A DNA stretch of 41,620 bases from a virus. The notes beneath the pieces were generated by a model, which was given only the letters and a program-made list of their open reading frames with translations, searched no databases and was not told where the DNA came from. The stretch's first letter is position 1, and every line of letters starts with the position of its first letter. A program made the translations under genes and the position numbers. This document shows positions 38,939 to 41,620 of this stretch, one piece after another. Location: the UHGV virus genome UHGV-0179596; one strand, given 5' to 3'.

Positions 38939-38967
38939 GGGCGCCAGAAATGGCGCCTTTTTTATTT
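38939..38967 (+). terminator. Intrinsic terminator after J
   Basis: Hairpin GGCGCCA-GAAA-TGGCGCC followed by T6 between J stop and the tail fiber start. Confidence 0.6.
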
Positions 38968-38978
38968 GTGGAGTGAAT

Positions 38979-41039
38979 ATGGCAGTACAGATTTCAGGCG
39001 TGCTGAAAGACGGTGCAGGAAAACCGATACAGAACTGCACCATTCAGCTCAAAGCAAAACGTAACAGCACCACGGTTGTGGTGAACACGGTGGCCTCAGA
39101 AAATCCGGATGAAGCCGGACGTTACAGCATGGATGTCGAGTATGGCCAGTACAGCGTTATCCTGCTGGTTGAAGGTTTTCCGCCTTCACATGCCGGGGCC
39201 ATCACCGTGTATGAGGATTCTAAGCCGGGGACATTGAATGATTTTCTGGGCGCTGCAACAGAAGATGATGTTCGTCCGGAGGCACTGTATCGTTTTGAAA
39301 AGATGGTGGAAGAGGTGGCACGCAACGCTGAAGCCGCCTCTCAGAGCGCAGCGGCAGCAAAGAAATCAGAAACAGCAGCGGCATCGTCCAGGAATGCGGC
39401 GAAAACATCAGAGACGAATGCAGGTAACAGCGCGAAAGCGGCAGCTTCTTCAAAAACAGCCGCACAAAACGCAGCAACAGCGGCAGAACGTTCAGAGACA
39501 AATGCCCGTGCGTCAGAAGAAGCCTCCGCAGACAGTGAAGAGGCTTCCCGCCGTAATGCAGAGTCAGCCGCTGAAAATGCCGGAGTCGCCACCACAAAAG
39601 CGCGGGAGGCCGCAGCAGACGCAACAAAGGCCGGGCAGAAAAAGGATGAGGCTCTGTCGGCAGCGACACGGGCTGAAAAGGCGGCAGACCGCGCAGAAGT
39701 CGCAGCGGAAGTGACTGCAGAGCCCTATGCGAATATAGTGCCGCCGCTGCCTGATGTGTGGATACCGTTTAACGATTCACTGGATATGATTGCGGGTTTT
39801 TCTCCGGGCTATAAAAAAATAGCTATTGGTGACGATGTGGTTCAGGTCGCCAGTGATAAACAGGTTAATTTCAGTCGCGCATCAACGGCAACATATATCA
39901 ACAAATCTGGCGAACTGAAAACGGCGGAAATTAATGAGCCGCGATTTGAGTGTGATGGCCTGCTTATTGAGGGACAAAGAACGAACTACATGCTCAATTC
40001 GGAAAGTCCAGCCAGCTGGGGGAAGTCATCAAACATGGATGTGCCCGAAACCGGGACAGATAGTTTTGGTTTTACTTATGGAAAGTTTGTCTGCAACGAT
40101 TCTCTGGTTGGGCAAACTTCGGCTATTAATATGGCATCAATTGCTGCAACAAAGTCAGTTGATGTCTCAGGCGATAACAAGTACGTGACAACCTCATGCC
40201 GTTTTAAAACAGAACGACAGGTAAGGTTACGTATACGGTTTGATAAGTATGATGGTAGTGCAACAACTTTTCTTGGCGATGCGTACATTGATACGCAAAC
40301 GCTTGAAATTAATATGACAGGTGGGGCTGCCGGCAGAATTACGGCACGAGTCAGGAAGGATAAGACCACAGGCTGGATTTTTGCAGAGGCAACGATTCAG
40401 GCAATTGATGGTGAGTTAAAAATAGGCTCTCAGATACAGTATTCTCCTGAGCGGGGTGGGGCAACAGTATCTGGTGACTATATTTATCTTGCCACCCCAC
40501 AAGTAGAGAATGGGCCGTGTGTATCATCATTTATTATTTCAGGAGGCAGCGCAACGACAAGAGCCAGTGATTTGGTTAGTATCCCCACCAGAAATAATCT
40601 TTATAAGTTACCATTTACTTTTTTACTTGAGATTCATAAAAACTGGGATATTGCACCAAACGCCGCACCCCGCGTGTGGGATATAGCAGCAGCCAATACC
40701 GGGCAATCAGCAATTGCAGCAATCAACAGAGGTAGTGGTAAGTTATATATGAGTCTGTCAAACCCTTCAGGCTTGTATGTTAATAGCGCAGCGACAGATG
40801 TATTTGCAGAGAAAACCACATTTGGATGTATTGCAAAAGCTGATGGTCACTTTCATGTGGTGACAAATGGTAAAGCGGTTAATGAAGTTTATTGTGAATA
40901 TAATGGTGTGACCGCTGATAAAAATATCCGATTTGGAGGGCAGACGAATACTGGAGAACGACATCTGTTTGGCCATATTCGCAATTTCCGCATATGGCAT
41001 AAAGAATTAAATGACAGGCAATTAAAAGAGGTCGTATGA
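38979..41039 (+). CDS. stf: Side tail fiber: lambda Stf-like N-terminus, Ala-rich repeat shaft, lectin-like (LamG/ConA-like) C-terminus
   Basis: 686-aa reading from MAVQISGVLKDGAGKPIQNCTIQLKAKRNSTTVVVNTV... (lambda Stf N-terminus); Ala/Ser/Glu-rich low-complexity shaft; C-terminus ends GHIRNFRIWHKELNDRQLKEVV, reminiscent of LamG-type jelly-roll domain endings. Confidence 0.85.
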   Translation: MAVQISGVLKDGAGKPIQNCTIQLKAKRNSTTVVVNTVASENPDEAGRYSMDVEYGQYSVILLVEGFPPSHAGAITVYEDSKPGTLNDFLGAATEDDVRPEALYRFEKMVEEVARNAEAASQSAAAAKKSETAAASSRNAAKTSETNAGNSAKAAASSKTAAQNAATAAERSETNARASEEASADSEEASRRNAESAAENAGVATTKAREAAADATKAGQKKDEALSAATRAEKAADRAEVAAEVTAEPYANIVPPLPDVWIPFNDSLDMIAGFSPGYKKIAIGDDVVQVASDKQVNFSRASTATYINKSGELKTAEINEPRFECDGLLIEGQRTNYMLNSESPASWGKSSNMDVPETGTDSFGFTYGKFVCNDSLVGQTSAINMASIAATKSVDVSGDNKYVTTSCRFKTERQVRLRIRFDKYDGSATTFLGDAYIDTQTLEINMTGGAAGRITARVRKDKTTGWIFAEATIQAIDGELKIGSQIQYSPERGGATVSGDYIYLATPQVENGPCVSSFIISGGSATTRASDLVSIPTRNNLYKLPFTFLLEIHKNWDIAPNAAPRVWDIAAANTGQSAIAAINRGSGKLYMSLSNPSGLYVNSAATDVFAEKTTFGCIAKADGHFHVVTNGKAVNEVYCEYNGVTADKNIRFGGQTNTGERHLFGHIRNFRIWHKELNDRQLKEVV

Positions 41040-41314
41040 AAGATTTAACTTTGAAGTTTCATGACAAACTGCAGTTTAAGGCCTTCCTGTCATCTCTTGA
41101 CTGGGAGGAGGATGAAGACCTCCAGAATAAACTGTTAGTCGATGAAATTGGTTTCACCTACACAGAAACAGGGGTAACAGAAGAGGGAGAACCTGTCTGT
41201 GTCCGGAATGACGGTTATTTTGTCAACATTCGCATTCTTGATGACTTGTTTGATGTTTCTGTATTCTCTGATTATGTCGTGGAGCTGGAAACACCGCTTC
41301 GGGAATGGAGCTGA
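41036..41314 (+). CDS. Hypothetical acidic protein downstream of stf
   Basis: 92-aa ORF whose ATG overlaps the stf stop (ATGA); no similarity to lambda Tfa recognised. Confidence 0.5.
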   Translation: MKDLTLKFHDKLQFKAFLSSLDWEEDEDLQNKLLVDEIGFTYTETGVTEEGEPVCVRNDGYFVNIRILDDLFDVSVFSDYVVELETPLREWS

Positions 41315-41326
41315 AAGGAGGAAATA

Positions 41327-41620
41327 ATGGATATAAGCCCCTTACTTCATGCGCTTTGTGCTGTGGCTGCGCAGATACTGGTTGGTCTTTTTACCGGAAA
41401 CTGGGCTTACGGAGCGATAGCCGGTTGTACGTTCTTCATTGCGCGTGAACATACCCAGGCAGAATATCGCTGGATTGAAATGTTCGGGCATGGCAAGCGA
41501 ATGAATATGCCGTGGTGGGGCGGTTTTGATCCGCGAGCTTGGGATGTGGCAAGCCTGATGGATTTTGCTGTGCCGGTGGTGGCGTGTCTGCTGGTCTGGC
41601 TGTTGGTTAATCGTGGGTGA
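41327..41620 (+). CDS. Hypothetical small membrane protein
   Basis: 97-aa ORF with SD AGGAGG; two hydrophobic segments (ALCAVAAQILVGLFTGNWAYGAIAGCTFFIA and FAVPVVACLLVWLLV); stop codon at the window edge. Confidence 0.55.
   Translation: MDISPLLHALCAVAAQILVGLFTGNWAYGAIAGCTFFIAREHTQAEYRWIEMFGHGKRMNMPWWGGFDPRAWDVASLMDFAVPVVACLLVWLLVNRG

What the first reader, a model, noticed from the sequence alone, without database searches (positions are those of the whole stretch)
41036..41620. Two small unknown ORFs at the tail-fiber-distal moron position
Immediately after stf, where lambdoid phages often carry exclusion or conversion genes (lom, cor), lie a translationally coupled 92-aa acidic protein and a 97-aa protein with two predicted transmembrane segments. 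Neither resembles Tfa. The membrane protein could act as a superinfection-exclusion or immunity factor, or the pair could assist fiber assembly.
Basis: partly seen in the sequence, partly recalled or inferred. Interest (0 to 1): 0.5.

Follow-up and report, generated by a model that had tools for sequence, protein, structure and literature searches.

The report
Fiber partner gene plus roaming membrane gene
The two small genes after the side tail fiber gene of this phage 21-like prophage are real but are not a pair: the first always travels with this type of fiber gene and is probably its helper, and the second is a highly conserved small membrane protein of unknown function that sits next to receptor-binding genes in many unrelated phages and occurs in about a third of complete E. 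coli genomes.

Summary
Both ORFs are real, conserved and under purifying selection. The window matches phage 21 at 100% identity, where both are annotated only as hypothetical, and no curated library or solved structure identifies either. They are two independent modules. ORF1 (92 aa, pI 4.1) overlaps the stf stop codon. An ORF1-like gene accompanies the head-spike-fiber/LamG-type receptor-binding gene in all 171 such loci in the ORF1- and ORF2-seeded sets, and in 43 of 80 diverse phage contigs found by searching with the fiber domain alone. It is most likely that fiber's cognate accessory protein or chaperone, unrelated to Tfa. ORF2 (97 aa) is predicted to have three helices, not two, and a nearly invariant loop that is probably cytoplasmic. 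Its family spans several proteobacterial classes. It lies directly after diverse receptor-binding genes in lambdoid, P2-, HP1-, P22- and epsilon15-like phages, inside a diversity-generating retroelement cassette, and at non-phage chromosomal sites. Only 1 of 80 fiber-seeded contigs has it. It behaves as mobile cargo; exclusion or immunity is plausible but untested. Matches occur in 35% of complete E. coli genomes. Interest is moderate.

The parts
38979..41039 (+). stf, the side tail fiber gene (phage 21 CPT_21_22). It combines an N-terminal prophage tail fiber domain, an Ala-rich segment, a head-spike-fiber-type domain and a LamG-like C-terminus.
   Evidence: Pfam phage_tail_N 9.8e-69 and Laminin_G_3 5.1e-05 (below Pfam's cutoff); NCBIfam GTA_spike_fiber 1.2e-14 at residues 331-531; phage 21 annotation.
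39765..41036 (+). StfC: the receptor-binding C-terminal part of Stf (about residues 265-688), the domain type that ORF1 accompanies.
   Evidence: Profile built from this region finds StfC-like genes upstream of ORF1-like genes in Escherichia, Comamonas, Pantoea, Chelativorans and Leclercia prophages and in environmental phages.
41036..41039 (+). ATGA overlap of the stf stop codon and the ORF1 start codon (translational coupling).
   Evidence: Sequence. The same -4 or -1 overlap occurs in 169 of the 170 adjacent StfC/ORF1 pairs.
41036..41314 (+). ORF1: a 92-aa acidic soluble alpha/beta protein (PHROG 1361/18574). Inferred cognate accessory protein or chaperone of the StfC-type fiber.
41316..41321 (+). 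AGGAGG ribosome-binding site of ORF2, 5 nt before its ATG.
   Evidence: Sequence; annotated as a ribosome-binding site in phage 21.
41327..41620 (+). ORF2: a 97-aa membrane protein with three predicted helices (PHROG 1443), belonging to an accessory family that spreads horizontally.
41441..41545 (+). ORF2 residues 39-73: the near-invariant loop (RE.TQAEYRWI ... G.G.R.NMPWWGG.D), predicted to lie at the cytoplasmic face.
   Evidence: Family alignments; this loop averages 5.3 K+R against about 1 on the opposite side.

Best explanation
The region holds two unrelated modules. (1) ORF1 is the dedicated partner of the head-spike-fiber/LamG-type receptor-binding domain at the end of Stf. It is translated by coupling to the stf stop codon, so it is made alongside the fiber late in infection. 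It most likely acts on the extreme C-terminus of Stf, either as a folding or assembly helper or as a small accessory protein bound at the tip. In function it would be an analog of Tfa, without homology to it. The linkage and coupling are shown; the biochemical role is inferred. (2) ORF2 is a separate accessory gene for a small inner-membrane protein with three helices. Its almost invariant loop and a cluster of conserved polar residues (H8, R40, E41, E46, D68, D79) are predicted to lie at the cytoplasmic membrane face. The gene moves horizontally and tends to lodge next to receptor-binding genes of many temperate phage types, and also at chromosomal sites with no phage genes. In phage 21 it is probably co-transcribed with the late tail genes; in P22-like phages it has what look like its own signals. 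Its most likely role is a cargo function in the host membrane, such as exclusion of incoming phage or immunity to a membrane-acting agent. This last step is inference only.
For: ORF1 and fiber linkage. Every locus with a StfC-like gene has an ORF1-like gene: 79/79 E. coli prophage contigs, 9/9 species-level genomes (8 directly adjacent; in Chelativorans the order is StfC-ORF2-ORF1), 79/79 Leclercia-type contigs whose ORF1 is only 30% identical, and 4/4 others; overlaps are -4 or -1. In a set seeded on StfC alone (27-39% identity, GC 35-67%), 43/80 contigs have an ORF1-like gene, almost always right after the last StfC gene. Mosaic analysis shows ORF1 tracks the Stf C-terminus and not the body of the binding domain. 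ORF2 independence. ORF2 is present in 0/80 Leclercia-type and 1/80 StfC-seeded loci. It follows other receptor-binding genes: a giant J-like protein, an S74-type fiber, tailspikes, P2 H-like fibers, the phiHAP-1 tail fiber assembly gene, and it lies between a candidate variable protein and bAvd plus reverse transcriptase. It also occurs at non-phage sites, next to pirin in Aeromonas and NAD-dependent DNA ligase domains in several other loci. Conservation is 45-64% identity across proteobacterial classes, with an invariant motif. In Gally a terminator-like hairpin and a promoter-like site precede it. Matches occur in 1903 of 5426 complete E. coli genomes.
Confidence: 0.55

Rival explanations
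1. ORF1 and ORF2 work together as a two-protein unit, for example a soluble and a membrane component that assemble or mature the fiber, or a paired effector and immunity system.
For: They are adjacent in phage 21 and in 1127 complete E. coli genomes. The StfC/ORF1/ORF2 trio recurs in Escherichia, Comamonas, Pantoea and Chelativorans and in one environmental contig, L263.
Against: ORF2 is absent from 80/80 Leclercia-type and 79/80 StfC-seeded loci. ORF2 occurs without ORF1 after at least ten other kinds of receptor-binding genes and at non-phage sites. In L089 and L091 a second fiber gene separates them. Their GC content differs (42.7% against 53.1%).
Confidence: 0.08
2. ORF2 acts in the lytic cycle as a late membrane protein, for example by modulating lysis timing or membrane state, or by protecting the producing cell late in infection. 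It would not be a lysogen-expressed cargo gene.
For: It is tightly packed with late genes: gaps of -20 to +27 nt in many prophages, a 12-nt gap and no promoter-like or terminator-like site in phage 21, and an overlap with the phiHAP-1 tail fiber assembly gene. In epsilon15-like phiv142-3 it lies just upstream of a membrane protein, holin and endolysin. In Comamonas L005 it is followed by a hydrophobic 125-aa ORF that I read as multi-transmembrane.
Against: Copies at non-phage chromosomal sites in Aeromonas and other genera have no lysis partners. In Gally it lies after a terminator-like hairpin with a promoter-like site, next to int. Phage 21's own lysis genes are not in this region.
Confidence: 0.2
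3. ORF2 is a small membrane enzyme or regulator that alters envelope glycans or their lipid carriers. That would be lysogenic conversion, changing the receptors recognised by glycan-binding fibers and spikes.
For: From my own knowledge of these phages (not tested here), P22-like phages carry gtrABC or oac between tailspike and int, and epsilon15 carries its conversion genes just after its tailspike; ORF2 occupies those slots in Gally and phiv142-3. Invariant polar residues cluster at the predicted membrane interface. Most neighbouring receptor-binding proteins are glycan-directed types: pectate-lyase spikes, S74-type fibers, lectin-like StfC. The Aeromonas copy lies near two lipid A acyltransferase genes.
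Against: There is no similarity to any known transferase, phosphatase or polymerase inhibitor. The family also occurs in Sphingomonadales, which by general knowledge lack classical LPS. 97 residues with three helices is very small for an enzyme.
Confidence: 0.15
4. ORF1 has nothing to do with the fiber and is simply a hitch-hiking gene at a permissive site.
For: No homology or fold match to any chaperone. The related RcGTA fiber folds without a partner.
Against: Linkage with stop/start overlap persists down to about 25-30% ORF1 identity, across host classes and GC contents from 35% to 67%. Hitch-hikers do not keep translational coupling over that distance. ORF1 divergence follows the Stf C-terminus.
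Confidence: 0.07

Closest known systems
Tail fiber assembly chaperones (lambda Tfa, P2 G, Mu U, T4 gp38/gp57A)
   Same: ORF1 is a small gene immediately 3' of the fiber gene and co-expressed with it. It co-inherits with the fiber's C-terminal end.
Prophage exclusion proteins encoded near tail genes (Cor of phi80/N15/HK022, T5 Llp, HK97 gp15, T4 Imm, P22 SieA, P2 Z/fun)
   Same: ORF2 is a small envelope protein encoded beside receptor-binding or tail genes of temperate phages. In P2-like prophages it occupies the slot after the fiber genes where P2 has G and Z/fun (the P2 gene order is from my own knowledge).
   Different: No hit to any exclusion family or PADLOC model. ORF2 is far more conserved and more widely distributed than those proteins. 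It is not matched to one receptor type, and no phenotype is known.
Conversion genes next to tailspike genes (P22 gtrABC, Sf6 oac, epsilon15 gp21/gp22, D3 Iap)
   Same: Same position in P22-like and epsilon15-like genomes. They are membrane proteins and, in Gally, apparently an independent transcription unit.
   Different: No homology. ORF2 is a single small protein, and its taxonomic range includes bacteria without classical O-antigen.
E1-type pore-forming colicin immunity proteins (about 100 aa, three transmembrane helices; recalled from memory)
   Same: Size and three-helix inner-membrane architecture.
   Different: No sequence hit. No adjacent toxin gene was seen in any locus examined. This is a resemblance only and was not tested.
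RcGTA head spike fiber (rcc01080)
   Same: Stf carries the same domain (NCBIfam GTA_spike_fiber), and RefSeq names E. coli homologs accordingly. The RcGTA protein is lectin-like and binds capsule (PMC10218006).
   Different: Here the domain is fused to a lambdoid side-fiber N-terminus and a LamG-like end, and it is followed by ORF1. Whether RcGTA has an ORF1-like neighbour was not checked.

Membership tests
Tail fiber assembly protein families (Pfam Caudo_TAP, DUF4376; PHROG tail-chaperone families) | Significant match to the family profile | tested here: not met
   ORF1 and ORF2 have no such hit at E<=1 in Pfam or NCBIfam, and their PHROG hits are only families of unknown function.
Tail fiber assembly protein (functional class) | Encoded directly after, and co-inherited with, the fiber's C-terminal receptor-binding part | tested here: met
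   ORF1: adjacent in 170 of 171 loci with a StfC-like gene, with -4/-1 overlaps, and in 43 of 80 of an independent StfC-seeded set. Its divergence follows the Stf C-terminus.
Tail fiber assembly protein (functional class) | Required for folding, oligomerisation or activity of the fiber; binds its C-terminus | not testable with these tools
   Needs co-expression, pull-down or knockout experiments.
PHROG 1361 / 18574 (unknown function) | Profile match over the full length | tested here: met
   ORF1 matches phrog_1361 at 8.1e-42 and phrog_18574 at 3e-06. Distant relatives match both.
PHROG 1443 (unknown function) | Profile match over the full length | tested here: met
   ORF2 matches at 2.4e-58 over residues 1-96 of 97.
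Known anti-phage defence or superinfection-exclusion proteins | Match to a PADLOC, Pfam or PHROG model of a known exclusion or defence protein | tested here: not met
   PADLOC gave 0 families for both proteins; no relevant Pfam or PHROG hit.
Known anti-phage defence or superinfection-exclusion proteins | Expression reduces plating or DNA entry of challenge phages | not testable with these tools
   No published data were found for this family.
Moron (independently transcribed cargo gene in a phage late region) | Own promoter and terminator flanking the gene | tested here: inconclusive
   Phage 21 context: no promoter-like or terminator-like site between stf and the end of ORF2. Gally context: a terminator-like hairpin and a promoter-like site precede the homolog. 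These are consensus scans only.
Moron (independently transcribed cargo gene in a phage late region) | Patchy distribution independent of the neighbouring structural genes | tested here: met
   Met for ORF2. Not met for ORF1, which always accompanies StfC.
Holin / lysis cassette membrane protein | Encoded with the endolysin and spanin genes of the same phage | tested here: not met
   In phage 21 the pair lies between stf and sitDCBA, with no lysis genes nearby. Only the epsilon15-like context places it upstream of a holin.

The most novel reading that the evidence does not exclude
ORF2 founds an unrecognised, very widespread family of phage-borne and chromosomal small inner-membrane proteins. 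Its invariant cytoplasmic-face motif would engage a conserved host or phage component, for example blocking a common step of genome entry across the inner membrane, or acting as one of the smallest membrane enzymes. In that reading it would be a broad-spectrum prophage-encoded protection or conversion factor present in about a third of E. coli genomes. ORF1 would separately define a new family of fiber chaperones or tip proteins for lectin-like receptor-binding domains in environmental phages.
Probability: 0.25. Interest if true: 0.7.

Novelty: new variant of a known kind. Interest (0 to 1): 0.42.

Why it matters
Both proteins are annotated only as hypothetical in every genome and phage record examined, including the classic phage 21 and the E. 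coli type strain. If ORF1 is the obligate partner of head-spike-fiber/LamG-type receptor-binding domains, then anyone swapping such fibers to retarget lambdoid particles should carry ORF1 along with the last ~45 residues of Stf. It would also add a fiber-helper family with no homology to Tfa. ORF2 is a compact, highly constrained membrane protein that many unrelated temperate phages keep beside their receptor-binding genes. Its function, whether exclusion, conversion or something else, can be tested cheaply by expression and phage challenge, and it could explain part of prophage-conferred phenotypes in E. coli.

Tried and rejected
- Family scans: Pfam, NCBIfam and PADLOC gave nothing significant for either ORF. 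PHROGs gave only families of unknown function.
- Profile searches against PDB sequences found nothing significant.
- The large repeat proteins in the ORF1 representative search look like spurious repeat matches, judged from the two I read.
- Domain-fusion test: the C-terminal extension fused to the ORF1-like domain in Comamonas and Pantoea matches only PHROG 6034 and 14311, both of unknown function, so it gives no link to known chaperones.
- Viral-contig scans with three other ORF1 subfamilies (P0192, P0181, P0229) found nothing, and the broad ORF1 alignment was too divergent to seed a scan.
- Literature: the phage 21 genome announcement does not mention these genes. The NC-SV prophage paper and the phiv142-3 paper have no data on them; in phiv142-3 the homolog is Orf5, while the paper studied orf6 and orf10, and the supplement does not list orf5.
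- Holin reading for ORF2 in phage 21: rejected on position.
- Housekeeping-gene reading for ORF2: rejected because its species distribution is patchy.
Full report
**What is there.** The last 585 bases of the window hold two plus-strand ORFs exactly as reported. ORF1 (41036-41314, 92 aa) starts with an ATG that overlaps the stf stop codon (ATGA). ORF2 (41327-41620, 97 aa) is preceded by AGGAGG five bases upstream. The region is 100% identical to Escherichia phage 21 (OL657228), ev017 and PhiR63_2. In phage 21 the genes are CPT_21_23 ('hypothetical protein') and CPT_21_24 ('putative membrane protein'). They lie between stf and the sitDCBA transporter operon on the opposite strand, with attP and int further on. 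The window ends at ORF2's stop codon, and so do many IMG/VR prophage contigs. My inference is that this end comes from prophage-boundary trimming just before the host-like sit genes.

**Are they real genes, and are they known?** Both are real.
- ORF2 has 577 homolog clusters.
- ORF1 has 48 close homolog clusters and 77 representative clusters with a profile search; a broader profile gives 521.
- Divergent E. coli alleles give dN/dS of about 0.2 for ORF2 and 0.35-0.4 for ORF1, on few substitutions.
- AlphaFold models are confident, with pLDDT 92 for ORF2 and 90 for ORF1.
- Pfam, NCBIfam and PADLOC give nothing significant. PHROGs places them in families 1361/18574 (ORF1) and 1443 (ORF2), all of unknown function.
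- Every source name retrieved is 'hypothetical protein'.
- No paper I could find addresses either protein.

**ORF1 belongs to the fiber.** Stf here joins a lambdoid N-terminal domain to a head-spike-fiber-type domain (NCBIfam GTA_spike_fiber, residues 331-531) and a weak LamG-like C-terminus. I built a profile of this C-terminal part ('StfC') and searched all fetched loci.
- Every locus with a StfC-like gene also has an ORF1-like gene: 79/79 E. coli prophage contigs, 9/9 species-level genomes, 79/79 Leclercia-type contigs and 4/4 others. In all but one it follows directly, nearly always with a -4 or -1 overlap. In Chelativorans the order is StfC, ORF2, ORF1-like.
- The Leclercia-type ORF1 is only 30% identical to the window's, and none of those 80 loci has ORF2.
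- Those sets were seeded on ORF1 or ORF2, so I ran an independent scan seeded only on StfC. The domain matches more than 512 viral contigs. Among the best 80 (27-39% identity, GC 35-67%), 43 have a detectable ORF1-like gene, almost always right after the last StfC gene and sometimes after two or three tandem StfC paralogs. Only one of the 80 has ORF2.
- Mosaic comparison among E. coli phages shows ORF1 follows the extreme C-terminus of Stf. In 2E9 and L088 the body of the binding region is only 23-35% identical, yet the last ~45 residues are 68-75% identical and ORF1 is 91-93% identical. In L089 the central domain is 93-97% identical, but the C-terminal ~130 residues (35-57%) and ORF1 (54%) have diverged together.

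Linkage with preserved translational coupling over this evolutionary distance indicates a functional partner of the fiber. The most economical reading is an assembly helper or a small tip-bound accessory protein.

There are caveats. ORF1 matches no known chaperone family or fold. The C-terminal extension fused to it in Comamonas and Pantoea is itself of unknown function. The homologous RcGTA head spike fiber was made alone in E. coli and still bound cells (PMC10218006), so a partner is not strictly needed for folding.

**ORF2 is a separate, mobile membrane-protein gene.** The model has three helices (4-23, 26-53, 74-96). The first two form a hairpin within the hydrophobic stretch 1-38. Across the family the loop 39-73 averages 5.3 K+R, against about 0.1 at the N-terminus, 0.1 at the hairpin turn and 0.9 at the C-terminus. 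The positive-inside rule therefore puts the loop in the cytoplasm, contrary to the N-in/C-in note in the phage 21 record.

The family spans Gamma-, Beta- and Alphaproteobacteria and Desulfovibrio at 45-64% identity. Its core is nearly invariant: H8, Q16, W26, G29, RE.TQAEYRWI, G.G.R.NMPWWGG.D, W72, D79 and P83. H42, C34 and C87 are not universal.

With annotated or Pfam-checked neighbours, ORF2 homologs lie directly after:
- a 2520-aa J-like protein in Comamonas;
- a Phage_tail_fib/Peptidase_S74 fiber in an HP1/P2-like Leclercia prophage;
- one tailspike and before another in a Salmonella element;
- a pectate-lyase spike that follows J in Citrobacter;
- the H-like fiber and a 75-aa ORF in P2-like E. 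coli prophages, before an invertase and the sheath gene;
- the tailspike and before int in the P22-like phage Gally;
- the tailspike-like Orf6 and before a membrane protein, holin and endolysin in epsilon15-like phiv142-3;
- the putative tail fiber assembly gene in phiHAP-1;
- a Tail_spike_N protein in Leclercia;
- a second, S74-type fiber inserted between ORF1 and ORF2 in other Escherichia prophages;
- a 383-aa ORF, with bAvd and a reverse transcriptase following, that is, inside a diversity-generating retroelement cassette.

It also occurs with no phage genes nearby: next to pirin in Aeromonas, next to NAD-dependent DNA ligase domains in several loci, and next to assorted housekeeping genes. 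It occurs in an early-looking region of an Aeromonas phage and, as partial matches, in jumbo phages. Its species distribution is patchy. In complete E. coli genomes, 1903 of 5426 have a match, 1127 have both ORFs and many have ORF2 alone behind another fiber, with up to seven places per genome.

**How ORF2 might work.** In phage 21 no promoter-like or terminator-like site separates stf, ORF1 and ORF2, and many prophages have gaps of only -20 to +27 nt upstream. Late co-transcription is therefore likely in those contexts. In Gally the tailspike gene is followed by a strong terminator-like hairpin, an AT-rich spacer with a promoter-like site, and then the gene, which is the layout of an independently expressed cargo gene. 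From my own knowledge, that slot holds gtrABC or oac in P22-like phages.

The neighbouring receptor-binding proteins are highly diverse while ORF2 is nearly invariant, so ORF2 cannot be matched to a particular receptor. Its target, if any, must be something conserved. I rank the readings as follows:
1. A cargo protein acting in the host inner membrane, such as exclusion of incoming phage or immunity to a membrane-acting agent.
2. A late lytic-cycle membrane function.
3. A small envelope-modifying enzyme or regulator.

None of these is tested. The conserved polar cluster predicted at the cytoplasmic membrane face is the obvious target for mutagenesis.

**Comparison with known systems, and verdict.** ORF1 behaves like a tail fiber assembly or accessory gene in position and inheritance, but it fails the sequence and fold membership tests for Tfa-type families. 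ORF2 resembles Cor, Llp, HK97 gp15, Imm, SieA and Z/fun only in being a small envelope protein beside tail genes, and it fails all profile tests for known exclusion or defence families.

The sequences are common and already catalogued as hypothetical, so the genes themselves are not new. What is new is the inference that ORF1 is a homology-free partner of a widespread lectin-like receptor-binding domain, and that ORF2 is a highly constrained roaming membrane protein that lodges beside receptor-binding genes. Interest is moderate.

Noticed in passing
window 41620 (end of window); L012, L013, L015 and other loci: The window ends on the last base of ORF2's stop codon, and many IMG/VR prophage contigs end at the same base. 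This looks like prophage-boundary trimming just before the host-like sitDCBA genes. In phage 21 the genome continues for about 6 kb to attP and int.
   Followed up: partly
window 39765-41036 (Stf C-terminal part); L245-L324: The head-spike-fiber-type domain of Stf is widespread: more than 512 viral contigs match, across GC 35-67%. In environmental phages it often occurs as two or three tandem paralogous genes followed by a single ORF1-like gene.
   Followed up: partly
L089 6918-7958, L091 7286-7990, L158 6315-7313: In other Escherichia and Leclercia prophages a second, short fiber gene with a Peptidase_S74 (intramolecular chaperone) domain follows ORF1. In L089 and L091 it separates ORF1 from ORF2.
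   Followed up: yes
L116 6785-10054 (Comamonas nitrativorans); L118 (Pigmentiphaga): An ORF2 homolog sits between a 383-aa ORF and bAvd plus a reverse transcriptase, that is, inside a diversity-generating retroelement cassette. The 383-aa ORF has no Pfam hit and I read it as an Mtd-like variable protein. The template and variable repeats were not looked for.
   Followed up: partly
window 38939-38958 (between J and stf): A strong terminator-like hairpin (GGGCGCCAGAAATGGCGCC followed by a T-run) lies between J and stf, and phage 21 annotates a terminator there. stf, ORF1 and ORF2 therefore lie downstream of a terminator inside the late operon, so their expression would depend on read-through.
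   Followed up: no
window 39738-41314 compared with 41327-41620: GC content differs. The StfC region is 43.5% and ORF1 42.7%, against 50.3% for the whole window and 53.1% for ORF2. This fits StfC plus ORF1 being one imported module and ORF2 having a different history.
   Followed up: partly
L003 2554-4970 (Lambda_4C10): Three genes annotated 'Mobile element protein' lie between the tail fiber gene and the conserved stf 3' end plus ORF1 and ORF2 in phages 4C10, 4A7, 1W and 3W. I read this as an insertion sequence that has interrupted the 3' end of stf.
   Followed up: no
L239 4398-9777 (Salmonella, 160-kb contig): An ORF2 homolog lies between two tailspike genes (Tail_spike_N plus pectate lyase) in an element with baseplate-wedge genes. 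The contig size suggests a large multi-tailspike myovirus, possibly virulent. A Salmonella Kuttervirus-sized phage (KFSST3, 156.6 kb) has only an unannotated partial match.
   Followed up: no
L001 6828-7121 (phage 21 record annotation of ORF2): The GenBank note gives a 29-aa signal sequence and two transmembrane domains, N-in and C-in. This conflicts with the three-helix model, with the absence of any positive charge at the N-terminus, and with the K/R distribution of the family.
   Followed up: yes
L241-L244 7391-7957 (P2-like E. coli prophages): A resolvase/invertase gene directly follows the ORF2 homolog, at the position between the fiber genes and the sheath gene. No inverted alternative fiber segment was looked for.
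   Followed up: no
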